From Dehalococcoidia bacterium (GTDB lineage: Bacteria > Chloroflexota > Dehalococcoidia > Lucifugimonadales > UBA3495): DNA of 64,000 bases. The position numbers and the translations under genes were made by a program. Of the stretch, positions 18,637 through 27,041 are shown one piece after another. The stretch covers positions 861,212-925,211 of the forward strand of contig OY764869.1 of the NCBI GenBank assembly GCA_963668585.1, in the 5' to 3' direction. Under the pieces are notes generated by a model, which saw only the letters and a program-made list of their open reading frames with translations, was not told the origin of the DNA and searched no databases. The stretch's first letter is position 1; the number at the start of each line of letters is the position of its first letter.

Positions 18637-18822
18637 CCAGTTCCCTCATCCCAAGCCCACCGTCCCGGCAACAGCAAATTCCTTTCCGCCAGGATAATCG
18701 AAATGACCCTGATGTTCCTCCGGCCGGCGACGCGACAAACGATGCCGCCCATCTGCGTTACAATGAACATCCATACCGTGGCAATTCCCCAACGGTCTCC
18801 CCGCAAATTCGCGAGGCGTGTC

Positions 18823-19545
18823 ATGACTACGAAACCAGTTGCAGCGCAATCGGATGGCGCAGTGGCCGGGCCCATCAACCAATTCCCTGAATACCCGCCC
18901 AGGGACGATATGCAGAATATCCTCTATATTCACAAGCCCAGCCACGTCACCGCGCTCAGCCGGCATTTTGGAGCGCCCGACACCACCCTCGTACTCGGAG
19001 AAATGCCTCTGGGCTGGGATGCTGAACAAACGACGGGCATACTGGTTCCCGACCTCATGGTAGCCTTCCACATGGACGTCGATGCCGCCATTGCCCAGCG
19101 GGGATACGCCGTCAACGACCGGGGCAAGCCGCCCGACTTCGTTCTCGAAGTCGCTTCCAGAAACACCGCCCGCAACGACGAAACCGGCAAGCGCGATGGC
19201 TACGCCGCATACGGAGTTCCCGAATACTGGCGTTTCGACCCTCAGGGACTTTACTATCGCTCCCGACTGGCCGGCGATACATTGGTCGATGGGGTGTACC
19301 AACCGATTCCCATTGACCAGACCGGCGATGAAATGTACCGGGGATTCTCGGCGGCGCTGAACCTGTACGTCTGCTGGGAACGGGGCCAACTGCGCTGGTA
19401 CGACCCAATCTCAGAAGGCTATCTGCTGACCCATGACGAGGAAGCCGACGCCCGCCTCGCCGCCGAACGCGAACGGGATGCCGAACGCGCGGCCCGCCTC
19501 GCCGCCGAAGAGCGCATCCGCCAGTTGGAGGCCGAACGGGAGTAA
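18823..19545 (+). CDS. Uma2/DUF820-family endonuclease-like protein
   Basis: VPDLMVAF, KPPDFVLEVAS..T...D...K...YA..GVPEYWRFDP; coiled-coil tail. Confidence 0.85.
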   Translation: MTTKPVAAQSDGAVAGPINQFPEYPPRDDMQNILYIHKPSHVTALSRHFGAPDTTLVLGEMPLGWDAEQTTGILVPDLMVAFHMDVDAAIAQRGYAVNDRGKPPDFVLEVASRNTARNDETGKRDGYAAYGVPEYWRFDPQGLYYRSRLAGDTLVDGVYQPIPIDQTGDEMYRGFSAALNLYVCWERGQLRWYDPISEGYLLTHDEEADARLAAERERDAERAARLAAEERIRQLEAERE

Positions 19546-19578
19546 CTCCCGGCGCGGTCGCCAAAAATCCCCGTCCGG

Positions 19579-19890
19579 CTAGCGGTATGGCTCGACGAGC
19601 GCCAGTCGTTGCGGCATGTGGTCCCCGGCGGTTTCCAGGTCATACTGAGTCTGCAGCCCCATCCAGAAAGCGGCGCTGTTGCCGAAAAAGCGGGCCGGCA
19701 GCAGCGCGGTTTCAGCGGTGATGGCCCGCTCCCCGTGCACGATGGCGTGAATGCGTCGTGGATCCACATTAATGGACCTGGCCAGTCGGTATTGACTGGC
19801 GTTCAGCGGCAGCAAGAACTCCTCGCTGAGAATTTCACCCGGATGAACCGGAGGCAGTTTTTCGGTCGGGTTCAACGCGTTCACACTCAT
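19579..19890 (-). CDS. higA: HigA-family antitoxin
   Basis: PVHPGEIL.EEFL.P, RAITAETAL, FWMGLQ..YDL. Confidence 0.88.
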   Translation of the reverse strand: MSVNALNPTEKLPPVHPGEILSEEFLLPLNASQYRLARSINVDPRRIHAIVHGERAITAETALLPARFFGNSAAFWMGLQTQYDLETAGDHMPQRLALVEPYR

Positions 19891-19915
19891 GATTGATTGT
19901 TCCGATGACTACCGC

Positions 19916-20020
19916 TCAGTGGTAATCCGTTAGCTCTACATCCCAAGCATCGCCTGATATCCAAACAAAGCAGATTCGCCACTGATTATTGACTCTGATG
20001 CTGTACTGTCCTTGACGATG
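19916..20020 (-). pseudogene. higB: C-terminal remnant of a HigB (RelE-like) toxin
   Basis: Only RQGQYSIRVNNQWRICFVW..GDA.DVELTDYH is present; the upstream sequence is unrelated to HigB. Confidence 0.7.
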
Positions 20021-20167
20021 CGCGCTATTAGCGTAAAGCGCCAATGTTTTTTGACGACTCCGCCTGTCTTTTTTCGACGACCGTGACCTCTCAACCGAAA
20101 GCAAACAGGGGCAACCAGGCCGGCTGCCCCTGCTGCAGAGATCCAATTGTGAGCGGAGCTTCGGAAG

Positions 20168-21889
20168 CTACCCCACGTCCTCCACCGGCGCCGTCGCGAT
20201 GCCGTACGTCCCGTAGAAGAAGTTGGCGTAGTGGGTGGACCCTCCGGTGACCCACAGCAAATACTGGTCAGGGTCTTCCAGCGCCGTAATCGTGGCGTTC
20301 GGGTCGTCGGCCAGATGCTGCAACTCCGGATGCGCCAGCCACTTGCCGTTCTCGTCCGTCGGCACGCCCGCGCGGATGGCGTCCTGCAACGACGCCCGGC
20401 AATGCTCGTGCAGCCACTCCTGCGCGTCTCGCTTGCTGAACCCGGCGTTGGCCAGGATCACCGCGCGCGACGGGCTGAGCATGATCGGGTGGTACGGCCC
20501 CTGGAAGGGCGCGCGCTTGTTGGTGTGCCCAATCTGCGCCGACTGACGGCCCCTGACCCAACTGCCGCCGCCCGCGTGCCGGTAGAACATCATGGACGCG
20601 ATGTTGTTCAGCGTGTCCATATGGTTCTTTGAAGCATTGTCCAGCACGTCGGTGGGGCCGGTGACCGTGACCACCGTCACCGCGCTCTCGTCGGCCCGGA
20701 AACCCTTGTCAACGTGATACGGCTGCCAGGGACTGACCTCCTCGTTCTCGGCGATGCACATCCCGAACTTGGTGGGCAGACCGATGAAGTTGGGGTCGCC
20801 CGCGCCTGCCTTGCAGTAGCCGATGTTGATCAGGCACAGACGCAGCGCCCGGCCGATGGCCGTGTTGGCCTTGTTGACCACGCCCGGACCCATGGCCGAC
20901 GTGCCGTAGTTGATGCCCGCCCGGTCCGCAATCGGCCCGTTCACCAGGATCAGCGGCGCCTCCGTGTGGCCCGACACCTGCATATCCCGGTGATTGCTCT
21001 CCGGCTGCGCGATGCACTCGATGGCCGCCAGCAGAATCGGGAACTGCTCGGGACTGCAGCCAGCCATCACCGCGTTGATGGCGATCTTCTCCACCGTCGC
21101 CAGGCCGAAGCCCGGCTCCATCACCATCACCACATCCTGCGGCGCGCGGCGCGTGCCCTTAAGCATCGCCTCCACCGCTGCCGGCGTGGGCGGAACCACG
21201 GGCATCCCGTCGCTCCAGTCCCGCTCCTCCATGAACCGGTTCACCGAGTCCAGTCCCCAAGCCGATTCATCCAGCGTTACGGTGAACACGTCGGTCTCGC
21301 TGTGTCCGTTGGTCATGCCGGTGAGGTCGGCCGTGGTGGACATTCGGGTCAATCCCAGGATGATGTTGTCGATCTGCTCGTCAACCATCTTGTGGATATA
21401 GTCGGCCTGCTGCCCCGTGCAGGCGTGGGGGATGGTTACGAACGCGGTCGCCGGCTGTCCCCAGCCGTCCACGCAGGACTGCCAGGCCCGTGCGAAACTG
21501 CGCGCGGCGATGCCAACGGCGGGCACTCCGGCCCTCTCCATTGCTACCATGTCGTGGGCAAGCCACGACGTGCAGCCCCCTCAATGCGCCGCGGCGCCAA
21601 CCATGGCGTCAACTTCCCTCGAGATGATTGCCGCCTCGTCCTCGTCGATGTGGACCCCGCGGCTCAGCGCGGGCCGGCCGGGTCGGCGGTCGCCGCCATA
21701 ACTCTCGAATTTCACGTTGGCGTAGCGGCGGCCGATATGCTCCGCCACGCGGTCAACGGCCACGCCCGCGCCGCCGGTCATGTTGTCGTACAGGCCAATG
21801 GTCTTGCCTTCCAGCGTGTCCAGGCGGGCAGCCGGCGGGACCTTGAAATCCACCCGCGCGGCGGCAGGCGACATTATCTGCAATTTCAT
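20168..21889 (-). CDS. Selenoprotein with a UGSC-family thioredoxin-like domain (UGGC) fused to a conserved C-terminal domain; 573 aa with Sec at TGA 21581-21583
   Basis: The two ORFs are in frame across one TGA (AAAH-U-GGCTSWLAHD-M); SD GAGGAAG before ATG 21889; hairpin just 3' of the UGA; C-terminal WSDGMPVVPPT and ATVEKIAINAVMAGC. Confidence 0.82.
21543..21576 (-). promoter_or_regulatory. Candidate bacterial SECIS hairpin
   Basis: Sense strand UGA-GGGG-GCUGC-AC-GUCGUGG-CUUGC-CCACGAC-AUG-GUAGC: perfect 7-bp upper stem, 5-bp lower stem, loop starting 18 nt after the UGA. Confidence 0.6.
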
Positions 21890-22084
21890 AGCTGACTTCC
21901 TCGTAAGTACGAATTGGTGGGGTGGTTTTCGCCGATTCTGGCACGGATTCACCCTCTTGGCAACATCACCTGCCACCCCACCAGCCCCATTCAATTATCA
22001 ACCATACACATCTCCGCGCCGTGATATGATGGCCCCGCACTCTTGAAAACACCCACTTCAACCACGGCACGGAGGTCACGGCAA

Positions 22085-22885
22085 ATGGCGACAGGCGCGC
22101 AGGCATGGACGGAAGAATTTGTAGATGCGGCAGGAGTCAGCCTCCAGATCGTCAGAGGCGGCAGCGGCGCTCCCCTGATCGTGCTGCACGGCGAACTCGG
22201 CCACCAGGGCTGGCTCCGCTACCACGACGCCCTCGCCCAGGACTACACCCTCCACATTCCTTCCCATCCCGGCTTCGGCGCAACCCAACGCCAGGAATGG
22301 ATCATGAACATGCGCGACCTGGCCGGCTGGTACCTCGAAGCCATCGACGACCTGGGCCTGCAGGGCTCCAACCTCATGGGGTTCTCCCTGGGCGGATGGC
22401 TGGCCGCCGAAATGGCCTCCATGTCGCCCGACCTCTTCAACCGTCTGGTTCTGGTCAGCCCCGCCGGCATCAGGCCGCCCGAAGGCGAGATCTACGACAT
22501 GTTCCTGGCCGTCGCCAAGGAATACCTCACCGCCGGCTTCTACGACACCGCCAGCACACCCGAGTTCCTGGAAGTCTGCCCAGACGAGGTCTCCCCCGAG
22601 ATGGCAGAGGCGTGGGATATCGCCCGCGAGGAGGCCTGCCGCCTCAGTTGGCGCCCCTACATGCACTATCTCGCCCTGCCCAATCTCCTGCACCGCCTCA
22701 AGCGCCTGCCCACCCAGATCATCTGGGGCCGCAACGACGAGATCGTCCCCGTCAGCGCCGCGCAGGTGTTCAACGACTCCATCCCAGGCTCTAGCCTCAC
22801 CATATTCGACAACTGCGGCCACAACCCCCACCTGGAAAACACCGACGAATTCCTCGCCACCGTCAAACCCTTCCTCGCTTCCTGA
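22085..22885 (+). CDS. Alpha/beta hydrolase
   Basis: LHG, HPGFG, GFSLGG nucleophile elbow, D.IVP, CGH. Confidence 0.88.
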   Translation: MATGAQAWTEEFVDAAGVSLQIVRGGSGAPLIVLHGELGHQGWLRYHDALAQDYTLHIPSHPGFGATQRQEWIMNMRDLAGWYLEAIDDLGLQGSNLMGFSLGGWLAAEMASMSPDLFNRLVLVSPAGIRPPEGEIYDMFLAVAKEYLTAGFYDTASTPEFLEVCPDEVSPEMAEAWDIAREEACRLSWRPYMHYLALPNLLHRLKRLPTQIIWGRNDEIVPVSAAQVFNDSIPGSSLTIFDNCGHNPHLENTDEFLATVKPFLAS

Positions 22886-22960: not shown

Positions 22961-24244
22961 ATGTTCATCGGATACTTCACCGAAAGGCCGTACCAGGACC
23001 CCAAGTCCGGATACTTCGGGGCCACCGGAAAACCCATCATGGACCTGGATGTCAGCAACGAGATCTATGACGCTCAGCTTGGCGCCAGCCTTTACAACCG
23101 CTACCTCGACGAAAAAATCTACGCCGAGGAGATGGGGTTCGACGGCCTCATGCTCAACGAGCACCACAGCACCCCCTTCTGCATGGGCGGCGCCATGAAC
23201 GTGGAGGCCTCCATCCTTGCCCGCATCACCCAGCGCGCCAAGATCGTCCTCCTGGGCAACATCATCCCCATCTGGGACGATCCCCTCTGGCTGGTCGAGC
23301 AACTCGCCATGATCGACATGATCTCCCACGGCCGCCTGGTCTCCGGATGGGTGCGCGGCACCGGGCGCGAGAGCGTCGCCCACAACGTGGAGCCCCACTA
23401 CAACTGGGAACGCTTCAAGGAGGCCCACGAACTCATCGTCAAGGCGTGGACCACTCCCGGCCCCTTCCGCTGGGAAGGCAAGCACTACCATTTCCGCCAC
23501 GTCAATCCCTGGGTGCGCCCCTACCAGAAGCCCCATCCTCCCATCTGGCTGCCGGGCGTCGTGAGCCGCGACTCCCTGATGTGGGCCGCCGAGCAGCGCA
23601 TCCCCTACATCATGCTCGCCACCGAGATGGAACCCACCAAGCAGGCCTTCCAACTTTACCACGACACCGCCGCCGATCTCGGATACGAGTCCGGCCCCCA
23701 GAACATCGGCTACCTCTGGAAGGTCCACGTGGACGAAACCGAAGAGTTGGCCGAGCAGGCCGGCCGCAAGTACGTCCAGGGCCCCAGCAACCCCTTCCTG
23801 GCCGGCAACGAAGGCACCACCAACCAGGCGCTGCTCCAACTGCCCGGCCTGACCTCCCGCCGGCGCGTCCTGCCCACCCAGTCGGTGGCCACTGCGGCCC
23901 GCGGCGGCAGCGCCGGTCCCGGCGGAGTCCTCTCCCGACCCTACGAGCAGCAGATCGAGGACTACACCATCATCTGCGGCACCCCCAAGACCGTGATCCC
24001 CAAGATCCGCCACGTGCTGGAAACCATCCGGCCCGGCAGCATCTTCTTCTGGGATGGCGACGGCGCCATGACCCACGACGACGCCATGCGCAGCCTCCGC
24101 CTCATGGGACAGGAGGTTCTGCCCGCCGTCCGCGAAATGGCCAAAGAACTGGATCTTCCAGGCCCCTTCGAGATGGACCCGGCCACCGGCAAGCCCTACG
24201 TGGCCGACCCGCCGGCCCCCGTTCCCGTCGGCGGCGACTCATAA
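22961..24244 (+). CDS. LLM-class flavin-dependent monooxygenase
   Basis: GFDGLMLNEHH, GRLVSGWVRGTG, P.QKPHPPIW. Confidence 0.9.
   Translation: MFIGYFTERPYQDPKSGYFGATGKPIMDLDVSNEIYDAQLGASLYNRYLDEKIYAEEMGFDGLMLNEHHSTPFCMGGAMNVEASILARITQRAKIVLLGNIIPIWDDPLWLVEQLAMIDMISHGRLVSGWVRGTGRESVAHNVEPHYNWERFKEAHELIVKAWTTPGPFRWEGKHYHFRHVNPWVRPYQKPHPPIWLPGVVSRDSLMWAAEQRIPYIMLATEMEPTKQAFQLYHDTAADLGYESGPQNIGYLWKVHVDETEELAEQAGRKYVQGPSNPFLAGNEGTTNQALLQLPGLTSRRRVLPTQSVATAARGGSAGPGGVLSRPYEQQIEDYTIICGTPKTVIPKIRHVLETIRPGSIFFWDGDGAMTHDDAMRSLRLMGQEVLPAVREMAKELDLPGPFEMDPATGKPYVADPPAPVPVGGDS

Positions 24245-25133: not shown

Positions 25134-27041
<1,908 letters not shown>

What the first reader, a model, noticed from the sequence alone, without database searches (positions are those of the whole stretch)
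20168..21889. Cryptic fused selenoprotein (UGGC) with a SECIS-like hairpin
Seen: ORFs 21581-21994 and 20168-21550 share a frame and are separated only by TGA plus ten sense codons, giving H-U-G-G-C, a UxxC redox motif. A perfect 7-bp stem-loop follows at bacterial SECIS distance. Known: UGSC-containing proteins are a selenoprotein family of unknown function. Inference: a 573-aa UGGC variant fused to its partner domain and transcribed divergently from a hydrolase-LLM pair, possibly a Sec-dependent redox arm of an uncharacterised catabolic pathway.
Basis: partly seen in the sequence, partly recalled or inferred. Interest (0 to 1): 0.85.

Follow-up and report, generated by a model that had tools for sequence, protein, structure and literature searches.

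The report
Fused UGSC selenoprotein with unknown partner domain
This is a real selenocysteine-containing gene, wrongly split in two by ordinary gene calling, that joins a known ocean selenoprotein of unknown function to the uncharacterised protein its relatives are almost always encoded beside.

Summary
Window 20168-21889 (-) is one 573-codon frame with a single in-frame TGA (codon 103, H-U-G-G-C) and a 7-bp hairpin 11 nt downstream. Pfam UGSC spans the TGA. The genome has selA, selB, selD and tRNA-Sec. All 24 genus orthologues keep the TGA. Of the 39 representatives (of 150 listed) that cover the site, 33 have Cys. The hairpin has the lowest synonymous variation in the gene and covaries across 42 family members.

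The UGSC/"Unknown_1" fusion was printed in 2008 (Zhang & Gladyshev, GOS), so this is a new member of a known kind.

Three points I did not find in print:
- The C-domain family (no Pfam or NCBIfam model, no solved fold relative at Z>=5) is the standing gene neighbour of UGSC. This holds for 9 of 9 copies in this genome and 72 of 84 in an order-wide sample, with identical presence in 32 and absence in 29 of 61 genomes.
- The UGSC domain models as a (beta-alpha)5 fold, not the thioredoxin-type order. It is weakly but specifically similar to the Sec region of GrdB/PrdB reductase selenoproteins.
- The proposed link to the hydrolase-LLM pair is not conserved (0 of 23 orthologous loci).

Function remains inferred: a self-contained Sec-dependent reductase.

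The parts
20168..21889 (-). Complete coding sequence of the fused selenoprotein: 573 codons plus TAG stop at 20168-20170, ATG at 21889-21887
   Evidence: The start site is shared by 24 of 24 orthologues (23 ATG, 1 GTG). The final stop is TAA or TAG in 23 of 24.
21581..21583 (-). In-frame TGA read as selenocysteine (U103). The putative resolving Cys106 codon lies at 21572-21574.
   Evidence: Of the 39 representatives that cover the site, 33 have Cys here.
21551..21569 (-). SECIS-like hairpin: arms at 21563-21569 and 21551-21557, loop CUUGC at 21558-21562, starting 11 nt after the UGA
   Evidence: No Rfam model matches it.
21347..21877 (-). UGSC domain (residues 5-181), modelled as a (beta-alpha)5 three-layer fold with Sec at the start of helix 3
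   Evidence: Pfam PF24696 at 96.1 bits; AF2 secondary structure; VIA rows; weak GrdB/PrdB similarity around the Sec.
20171..21304 (-). C-terminal partner domain (residues 196-573), probably 'Unknown_1' of the 2008 paper. Conserved motifs: GW.DG.P..PPT, NAVMAGC, VNGP, GPG..N..IGRA, AENE..SPW.
   Evidence: No Pfam or NCBIfam hit. AF2 pLDDT 91.3. Best solved-structure match is Z 4.1. Conservation from alignments.
21056..21058 (-). Codon of Cys278 in the NAVMAGC motif, conserved in at least 90% of sequences; a candidate redox or catalytic residue of the partner domain
   Evidence: Near-invariant column lists of alignments A2 and A3. Its role is inferred.
21896..21902 (-). Shine-Dalgarno-like GAGGAAG, 6 nt before the ATG
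   Evidence: Read directly from the sequence.
21935..21963 (-). Promoter-like site (TTGCCA, 17 nt, TG-CAGAAT), which would place the transcript start near 21929
   Evidence: Consensus scan. Contigs from RNA libraries all end at 21929. This is a weak hint only.

Best explanation
Shown: one gene encodes a 573-residue selenoprotein. UGA at codon 103 is decoded as selenocysteine by the cell's SelA/SelB/SelD/tRNA-Sec system, and a hairpin sits 11 nt downstream where a bacterial SECIS would lie.

The N-terminal 180 residues are a UGSC-family domain. It models as a (beta-alpha)5 fold with the U-G-G-C motif at the start of a helix. It resembles the Sec-bearing part of GrdB/PrdB reductase selenoproteins. 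The C-terminal 380 residues belong to a very large unannotated family that is otherwise encoded as a separate gene next to a stand-alone UGSC gene. The fusion therefore joins the two halves of a standing two-protein module.

Inferred: the C-domain is the substrate-binding or catalytic half. It has near-invariant polar residues (D227, N342, R347, E381) and a near-invariant Cys278. The selenol of U103 attacks or reduces what is bound there. It then forms a selenenyl-sulfide with Cys106, which a cellular thiol system reduces again. On this reading it is a self-contained Sec-dependent reductase in the style of selenoprotein B, not an arm of the neighbouring LLM genes. The substrate is unknown.

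Confidence by layer: about 0.95 that this is a genuine read-through selenoprotein and a fusion of the module; about 0.4 for the specific reductase mechanism. The single figure given is for the statement as a whole.
For: Read-through and Sec decoding:
- Pfam UGSC spans the TGA.
- The genome holds selA at 557 bits, selB at 362 bits, selD at 375 bits (itself with a TGA), and a tRNA-Sec with anticodon TCA.
- All 9 UGSC copies in this genome have the TGA at the same site.
- 24 of 24 orthologues keep the TGA. In the order-wide sample, 83 of 84 UGSC matches carry a TGA.
- Cys stands at the site in 20 of 24 picked full-length homologues and in 33 of the 39 representatives that cover it.
- The hairpin shows suppressed synonymous change and covariation.
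- Contigs from RNA libraries, about 98% alike, run unbroken across the TGA over 20611-21929. No difference is listed between 21528 and 21679.

Two-protein module:
- tblastn of the C-domain finds 9 places in the genome. Each lies 25-861 nt from one of the 9 UGSC genes on the same strand.
- In 61 genomes of the order, UGSC and the partner are found in the same 32 genomes and in none of the other 29.
- 72 of 84 partner matches have a UGSC match within 1.5 kb on the same strand.
- Fused forms (open frames of at least 548 aa) occur in 17 of those genomes.
- The full-length AF2 model has pLDDT 91.6 and pTM 0.93, which indicates a fixed two-domain arrangement.

GrdB/PrdB likeness:
- hhalign of the UGSC-domain alignment against the PrdB/GrdB-like alignment gives Prob 71%, E 3.6e-5 over 70 columns, with Sec aligned to Sec.
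- In NCBIfam, the only sub-threshold hits of UGSC sequences are GrdB, GrdF, GrdH, PrdB and 'various_sel_PB'. The best is E 3.9e-5, in 3 of 7 sequences, including the window's at E 0.059.
Against: - No experiment shows Se incorporation or any activity.
- The GrdB/PrdB similarity is weak (12-23 bits against cut-offs of 65-800 bits) and covers only about 70 residues. It could be convergence of a beta-strand/UxxC/helix motif.
- The partner shows no sequence similarity to the pyruvoyl proproteins GrdE or PrdA (0 Pfam families at E<=1).
- The window protein is below NCBIfam's UGSC cut-off (79.5 against 125 bits).
- Cys106 is replaced by Ser in 5 of the 33 Cys-form representatives. Four representatives have Ser, one Thr and one Ile at the Sec site itself. 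Some family members therefore cannot run this chemistry.
- About 14% of partner or UGSC matches in the order-wide sample are not adjacent.
- I could not read model coordinates, so contact between U103 and the C-domain pocket is not shown.
- No reductant gene or other gene is conserved beside the fused form.
Confidence: 0.6

Rival explanations
1. The UGSC domain is a built-in, thioredoxin-like redox keeper of the C-domain. On this reading the selenol does not touch a small-molecule substrate. It reduces or oxidises Cys278 of the partner for activation, regeneration or protection, so the partner is the only 'substrate'.
For: Cys278 (NAVMAGC) is conserved in at least 90% of sequences. The UxxC motif is the classical dithiol/selenol-thiol exchange motif, and the 2008 paper reads the family as a thiol oxidoreductase. 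The strict one-to-one pairing of each UGSC with its own partner paralogue fits a dedicated redox couple.
Against: Cys278 is absent in some homologues, for example P0127, P0185 and P0234. The only remote sequence similarity is to GrdB/PrdB, where Sec acts on the substrate (the mechanism itself is recalled from the literature). No distance between U103 and Cys278 could be measured here.
Confidence: 0.25
2. One reading: the protein is the Sec-dependent redox arm of a catabolic pathway formed with the divergently transcribed alpha/beta-hydrolase and luciferase-like monooxygenase.
For: In this genome the hydrolase (22043-22885) and LLM (22961-24244) lie 154 nt upstream on the other strand. An LLM homologue lies about 3 kb away in 2 of 16 fused loci from other genera. 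The stand-alone pairs sit among catabolic-type genes such as CoA-transferase, an enolase-superfamily gene, SDR and an acyl-CoA ligase.
Against: Neither the hydrolase nor the LLM was found within the 1.5-kb flanks of any of 23 same-genus orthologues. Instead, 13 of 24 genus loci have an AXE1 esterase downstream. No flanking gene is shared by more than 3 of 17 fused loci.
Confidence: 0.07
3. There are two separate genes. TGA at codon 103 is a true stop, giving a 102-residue N-terminal product and an independent 460-residue protein from ATG 21550. Alternatively the gene is broken.
For: Public gene calls start at this ATG: the best 120 database homologues are 449-471 residues long. A Met at position 114 is conserved.
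Against: - The Pfam domain would be cut in the middle of its fold.
- TGA, and never TAA or TAG, stands at this codon in 24 of 24 orthologues, while 23 of 24 end the gene with TAA or TAG.
- Cys homologues run through the site.
- The SECIS-like hairpin is conserved.
- The Sec machinery is complete.
Confidence: 0.02

Closest known systems
UGSC-containing selenoprotein family (Pfam PF24696, NCBIfam NF041046), including the 'UGSC/Unknown_1 fusion' of Zhang & Gladyshev 2008 (PMC2398784)
   Same: The domain matches across the Sec codon. The U-x-x-C motif is in register with the 8 stand-alone copies. The hairpin lies in the same register. The order is UGSC at the N terminus and a conserved unknown domain at the C terminus, as the paper's text describes.
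   Different: The score is below NCBIfam's equivalog cut-off (79.5 against 125 bits). The motif is A-H-U-G-G-C rather than G-D-U-G-S-C. I could not see Figure S1A because supplements are closed, so identity of 'Unknown_1' with this C-domain is likely but unverified. The paper supposes a Trx-like fold; the model here is (beta-alpha)5.
Selenoprotein B of glycine/sarcosine/betaine/D-proline reductases (GrdB, GrdF, GrdH, PrdB; TIGR01917, TIGR01918, TIGR04483)
   Same: Sec stands in a U-x-x-C/S motif directly after a beta strand and before a helix, followed by the E-x-x-G-(I/L)-P-x-V strand. The alignment puts Sec on Sec. Both work with a separate substrate-binding subunit (recalled for GrdE/PrdA).
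   Different: Only about 70 residues are alike, with scores far below the cut-offs. The N-terminal part of GrdB is missing. The partner has no detectable likeness to GrdE or PrdA. The host genomes also carry a separate PrdB/GrdB-like selenoprotein.
Thioredoxin-fold UxxC selenoproteins (Trx-, Prx- and Grx-like)
   Same: They share a UxxC redox motif at a helix N terminus. The literature has grouped UGSC with them.
   Different: The predicted secondary-structure order is five beta-alpha units, not the Trx beta-alpha-beta-alpha-beta-beta-alpha order (the latter is recalled).
Class I (Fe-S) fumarate hydratase alpha subunit and L-serine dehydratase; PrpD and cyanuric-acid-hydrolase type alpha+beta domains
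   Same: These are the best, though weak, fold matches of the C-domain: 7xky_A at Foldseek E 8.3e-4, TM 0.24/0.30 and VIA Z 4.1, rmsd 5.1 over 182 residues.
   Different: All matches are below the level that indicates a shared fold (0 of 48,161 chains at Z>=5). There is no sequence similarity and no three-Cys cluster motif in the conserved columns.

Membership tests
UGSC family (PF24696 / NF041046) | Match to the family model over its curated cut-off | tested here: met
   Pfam gives 96.1 bits against a cut-off of 25, over residues 5-181. NCBIfam's stricter equivalog cut-off is NOT reached: 79.5 bits and 82.6 bits against 125.
UGSC family (PF24696 / NF041046) | Sec or Cys in a U/C-G-x-C motif at the family's conserved site | tested here: met
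   H-U-G-G-C is aligned with D-U-G-S-C of the 8 stand-alone copies and with C-G-x-C of Cys homologues.
Bacterial selenoprotein (UGA decoded as Sec) | selA, selB, selD and tRNA-Sec present in the genome | tested here: met
   All four are over their cut-offs. ARAGORN finds a tRNA-SeC with anticodon TCA.
Bacterial selenoprotein (UGA decoded as Sec) | Stem-loop shortly downstream of the UGA (bacterial SECIS) | tested here: met
   A 7-bp stem starts 11 nt after the UGA. It has the lowest synonymous variation in the gene and covaries across 42 sequences. bSECISearch itself was not available, and no Rfam model matched.
Bacterial selenoprotein (UGA decoded as Sec) | Homologues with Cys at the UGA position | tested here: met
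   20 of 24 picked homologues; 33 of the 39 representatives that cover the site.
Bacterial selenoprotein (UGA decoded as Sec) | Selenium shown in the protein | not testable with these tools
   This needs 75Se labelling or mass spectrometry.
UGSC/Unknown_1 fusion (Zhang & Gladyshev 2008) | The C-terminal domain is the paper's 'Unknown_1' | not testable with these tools
   The alignment is in Figure S1A, a supplement I could not open. The main text gives only the name.
GrdB/PrdB selenoprotein B | Match to the TIGR01917, TIGR01918 or TIGR04483 model over its cut-off | tested here: not met
   The best score is 22.7 bits against cut-offs of 65.45 to 602 bits. The window domain scores 12.3 bits at E 0.059. 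Local likeness only.
GrdB/PrdB selenoprotein B | Partner subunit of the GrdE/PrdA (pyruvoyl proprotein) family | tested here: not met
   The C-domain and two stand-alone partners give no such Pfam family at E<=1 and no NCBIfam family.
Thioredoxin-fold oxidoreductases | Trx-type fold of the Sec domain | tested here: inconclusive
   The AF2 model shows five beta-alpha units. VIA's best rows are flavodoxin-, B12-binding-, CheY- and Rossmann-like at Z 8.4-10.9. A family that is not listed is not thereby excluded.

The most novel reading that the evidence does not exclude
UGSC and its unannotated partner form a previously unrecognised, widespread two-component (or fused) selenium-dependent reductase. 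Its Sec subunit is an evolutionary offshoot of the glycine/proline-reductase selenoprotein B. Its catalytic subunit has a fold with no solved relative. In these Chloroflexota-type genomes it has multiplied into about nine substrate-specific pairs set among catabolic genes. That would be a new enzyme class for reductive bond cleavage in aerobic marine and sponge-associated heterotrophs.
Probability: 0.3. Interest if true: 0.75.

Novelty: new member of a known kind. Interest (0 to 1): 0.45.

Why it matters
UGSC is among the most abundant ocean selenoprotein families: 255 Sec sequences in the GOS survey. A 2026 review still lists its function as uncharacterised. The gene itself adds little, because the fusion is already known.

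What may matter is the pattern around it. UGSC has a strict genomic partner of at least 7,983 'hypothetical' proteins with no family model. That partner's confidently modelled fold has no solved relative. The only remote similarity of UGSC points to GrdB/PrdB. Together these turn 'unknown redox protein' into a concrete two-subunit enzyme hypothesis that can be expressed and assayed.

The locus is also a practical case of mis-annotation. All of the best 120 database homologues are truncated at the Sec codon.

Tried and rejected
- **Rfam.** A scan of 19500-22500 at E<=10 gave only two chance-level hits (snoZ206, mir-671) and no SECIS model.
- **Folding energy.** The 71-nt region around the TGA is not unusual (z -0.41), so energy alone is no evidence.
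- **Lower stem.** A possible 5-bp lower stem (G7-C40 and so on) pairs with codons 115-116, which vary synonymously. I do not claim it.
- **Double-Sec paralogues.** The '2 TGA' rows turned out to be an ordinary UGSC gene ending in TGA, followed in the same frame by its partner gene.
- **Conserved third gene.** The neighbours of the 8 stand-alone pairs are all different, apart from NHL propellers at two pairs. No flank gene is shared by more than 3 of 17 fused loci.
- **Sequence search of the PDB** with the 126-sequence profile gave 0 hits at E<=1.
- **Fold searches.** Foldseek and VIA on the full model matched only the N-domain, and only generically. No thioredoxin-fold entry was among the 50 VIA rows, which does not exclude one. 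For the C-domain, Foldseek's best TM was 0.24-0.30. VIA found no chain at Z>=5. A weak match does not prove the fold is new.
- **ESM Atlas.** The nearest clusters are 'hypothetical protein' with no Pfam family.
- **Literature.** The searches 'UGSC'+'selenoprotein' (9 papers), 'UGSC'+'GrdB' (4 papers) and 'SAR202'+'selenocysteine' (3 papers) yielded no passage, among those I read, that links UGSC to GrdB/PrdB or describes the UGSC-partner gene pairing. I read passages only, not whole papers. The supplements, including Figure S1A of PMC2398784, were closed.
- **RNA-library contigs.** No contig was laid over window 21956-22000. That is not evidence of absence. I did not lay a DNA run or a silent stretch, so transcription is not proven. 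X6/X8 and X7/X9 gave identical figures and may be the same data filed twice.
- **Complex prediction** was not used. Its stated rule is proteins by code 11, and every UGSC gene here needs TGA read as Sec. I did not try it.
No Sec-to-pocket distance was measured.
Full report
**The observation.**
On the minus strand, ORFs 21581-21994 and 20168-21550 share a frame. The sequence reads ...GCG GCG CAT TGA GGG GGC TGC ACG TCG TGG CTT GCC CAC GAC ATG..., with TGA at 21583-21581. Translated from ATG 21889 with TGA=U, it gives 573 residues with U103 in the motif A-A-H-U-G-G-C. A Shine-Dalgarno-like GAGGAAG lies 6 nt before this ATG. The perfect 7-bp stem GTCGTGG/CCACGAC with loop CTTGC starts 11 nt after the TGA.

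**Is the TGA decoded as selenocysteine?**
- Pfam's UGSC model matches residues 5-181 in one stretch across the TGA (E 3.4e-27). NCBIfam's UGSC model matches too, but below its cut-off (79.5 against 125 bits).
- The genome is a single 3.73-Mb contig. It holds selA (557 bits), selB (362 bits), selD (375 bits, itself with an in-frame TGA) and a tRNA-Sec with anticodon TCA.
- It holds nine UGSC genes, all with one TGA at the same motif position. Seven are UGSC and two are UGGC, one of them the fused copy.
- With the protein as query, a full-length match with exactly one TGA was found in 23 of 24 other genomes of the genus. It was missing in G019, which is 95% complete in 110 contigs. More distant fused forms appear in G035 (47% identity) and G031 (37%).
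- In the 24 extracted CDS, the start is at the same site (23 ATG, 1 GTG). TGA is codon 103 in all 24. The real stop is TAA or TAG in 23 and TGA in one.
- Among the 150 listed representatives of a 1.84-billion-protein library, 39 cover the site: 33 have Cys, 4 Ser, 1 Thr and 1 Ile. In the 24 I first picked and aligned, the counts were 20 Cys, 3 Ser and 1 Thr.
- Across 61 genomes of the order, 83 of 84 UGSC matches carry a TGA. The one without is a fragment that starts after the site.

**The hairpin.**
Its folding energy is unremarkable and Rfam has nothing for it. Comparison across sequences is what supports it.
- Across the 24 orthologues, the 13-codon window beginning at codon 102 has the lowest synonymous diversity of 582 windows (0.045 against a gene mean of 0.354). 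Codons 108-112 are invariant at the nucleotide level, while the codons on either side vary freely.
- I anchored 42 distinct family sequences at the TGA: fused and stand-alone copies from this genome and from 30 other loci. They share a stem in one register, with columns 15-22 pairing with columns 26-33.
- That stem is 83.6% paired, with a covariation score of 0.164. Column shuffles give 0.062 (0 of 500 reach the observed value), and sliding the partner gives at most 0.085. Pair 21-27 is C-G in 33 sequences and G-C in 8.
- These sequences also code for protein and are related to each other, so the numbers are supportive rather than a probability.

**Expression hint.**
Contigs from four RNA-library runs labelled metagenome or sponge metagenome are about 98% identical to the window. 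The runs come from two studies, and their figures suggest two data sets filed twice. One contig covers 20611-21929 without a break, so it spans the TGA. No difference is listed between 21528 and 21679. All contigs end at 21929, which is 6 nt beyond the -10 hexamer of a promoter-like site at 21963-21935. Contigs cannot prove a transcript start, and DNA can be present in RNA libraries.

**What is fused to what?**
- The C-terminal 380 residues hit no Pfam or NCBIfam model at E<=1. Neither do two stand-alone relatives.
- tblastn of this domain against the genome finds nine places. Each lies on the same strand as one of the nine UGSC genes and 25-861 nt from it. The partner is upstream in six of the eight split pairs, and UGSC is upstream in two.
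- In the 61-genome order-wide sample, UGSC and the partner region are found in the same 32 genomes and in none of the other 29.
- 72 of 84 partner matches have a UGSC match within 1.5 kb on the same strand, and 71 of 84 UGSC matches have a partner that close. Among the split pairs, the partner is upstream in 39 and UGSC in 13.
- Long open frames of at least 548 aa with one TGA, meaning fused forms, occur in 17 of those genomes.
Where a source gives a name, it is 'hypothetical protein'. The ESM Atlas gives the same picture.
- The fusion is therefore a Rosetta-stone join of a standing two-gene module.

**What is already in print.**
Zhang & Gladyshev 2008 (PMC2398784; passages read) list UGSC as a major GOS family, with 255 Sec and 21 Cys sequences. 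[quoted passage not shown] I could not open Figure S1A. Reviews from 2022 and 2026 still list the function as unknown. In the passages I read, I found neither the gene pairing nor a link to GrdB/PrdB.

**Folds.**
- With a 126-sequence alignment, AlphaFold2 gives pLDDT 91.6 and pTM 0.93 for the whole protein.
- The N-domain is five beta-alpha units. U103 follows strand 95-101 directly and opens helix 104-119.
- VIA's best matches for the N-domain are generic three-layer alpha/beta folds: a de novo design at Z 10.9, plus B12-binding, CheY-like and Rossmann-like proteins at Z 8.4-10. Foldseek gives nothing clear.
- The C-domain folded alone has pLDDT 91.3 and pTM 0.92. It has no solved relative. 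Foldseek's best is the class I fumarate hydratase alpha subunit 7xky_A (E 8.3e-4, TM 0.24/0.30). VIA finds 0 of 48,161 chains at Z>=5, with a best of Z 4.1.
- That is unusually low for a confident model, but it does not prove a new fold.

**A lead on mechanism.**
- The genome also has a PrdB/GrdB-like selenoprotein with the motif T-P-T-U-P-L-C. Matches to the GRDB model occur in 43 of 61 relatives.
- By eye, the stretch 'strand - U-x-x-C/S - helix - E-x-x-G-(I/L)-P-x-V' is shared with UGSC.
- hhalign of a 33-sequence UGSC-domain alignment against the PrdB/GrdB-like alignment gives Prob 71%, E 3.6e-5 over 70 columns, with Sec on Sec.
- As an independent check, I scanned seven UGSC sequences against NCBIfam at E<=10. 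The only families listed besides UGSC are GrdB, GrdF, GrdH, PrdB and 'various_sel_PB'. This occurs in 3 of the 7 sequences, with a best of E 3.9e-5, and the window's domain scores E 0.059. The aligned region is GrdB positions about 321-400.
- This is weak but specific. I read UGSC as a remote relative of the Sec subdomain of selenoprotein B.
- In those reductases (recalled knowledge), the selenol attacks a substrate held by a partner subunit, and a selenenyl-sulfide is then reduced.
- By analogy, and given near-invariant D227, N342, R347, E381 and Cys278 in the C-domain, the most likely working model is a self-contained Sec-dependent reductase.
- The main rival is that the Sec domain only services Cys278 of its partner.
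- The partner is not detectably related to GrdE or PrdA. Membership in the GrdB/PrdB system fails on both tested features.

**Context.**
- In this genome the gene is transcribed divergently from an alpha/beta hydrolase and an LLM.
- Downstream lie a HigA-like HTH gene with a small upstream ORF, a Uma2 gene, and oligopeptide ABC ATPases.
- Neither the hydrolase nor the LLM is within the 1.5-kb flanks of any of the 23 genus orthologues. Thirteen of the 24 genus loci instead have an AXE1 esterase downstream.
- Across 17 fused loci of different genera, no flank gene recurs in more than three. An LLM homologue occurs in 3 of the 17, counting the window.
- The eight split pairs sit beside unrelated, mostly catabolic-type genes.
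- The LLM link is therefore local, not a conserved pathway.

**Verdict.**
This is a genuine, mis-annotated selenoprotein and a new member of the printed UGSC/Unknown_1 fusion class. First, UGSC and the partner form a near-obligate module with an unplaced fold. Second, UGSC shows remote likeness to GrdB/PrdB. Function is still inferred.

Noticed in passing
own genome G000:C1:2381513-2381938 (-), outside the window (locus L065): A PrdB/GrdB-like selenoprotein with motif T-P-T-U-P-L-C, followed by roughly 230 further residues after the Sec region. The Pfam GRDB model ends exactly at the Sec. Matches to the model occur in 34 of 36 other genomes of the genus.
   Followed up: partly
own genome G000:C1:3660754-3661677 (+), locus L013: selD itself carries one in-frame TGA, so this organism's selenophosphate synthetase is a selenoprotein.
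   Followed up: no
window 18703-20146: A Uma2-family gene (18703-19545, +), a HigA-like HTH gene (19579-19890, -) and a small upstream ORF (19916-20146, -) sit between the selenoprotein gene and the oligopeptide ABC ATPase genes. The HigA homologue is found in only 3 of 23 orthologous loci, and at other distances, so this looks like a local insertion.
   Followed up: partly
window 25134-27041 (+): A 635-residue ORF with no Pfam family at E<=0.001. It lies next to a class-V aminotransferase and a C1-like peptidase.
   Followed up: no
own genome pair B, G000:C1:460398-462820 (locus L067:6984-7706): In one split pair, an Endonuclease/Exonuclease/phosphatase-family gene lies between the UGSC gene and its partner gene. 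This is the only pair with a gene in between.
   Followed up: no
loci L066:8774-9667 and L068:4421-5368: NHL-repeat beta-propeller genes lie close to two of the eight split UGSC-partner pairs. This is the only neighbour type seen twice.
   Followed up: no
proteins P0148, P0154, P0190, P0195, P0202 (709-741 aa) and P0214 (1226 aa): These are longer relatives with two matched stretches of the partner domain or with large extra N-terminal regions. They may be tandem or further-fused architectures.
   Followed up: no
window 21929: Contigs from all four RNA-library runs end at the same base. It lies 6 nt past the -10 hexamer of a promoter-like site and 40 nt before the ATG.
   Followed up: partly
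proteins P0002-P0121: All 120 best database homologues are 449-471 residues long and cover 78-80% of the query. Public gene calls therefore cut this family at the Sec codon throughout.
   Followed up: yes
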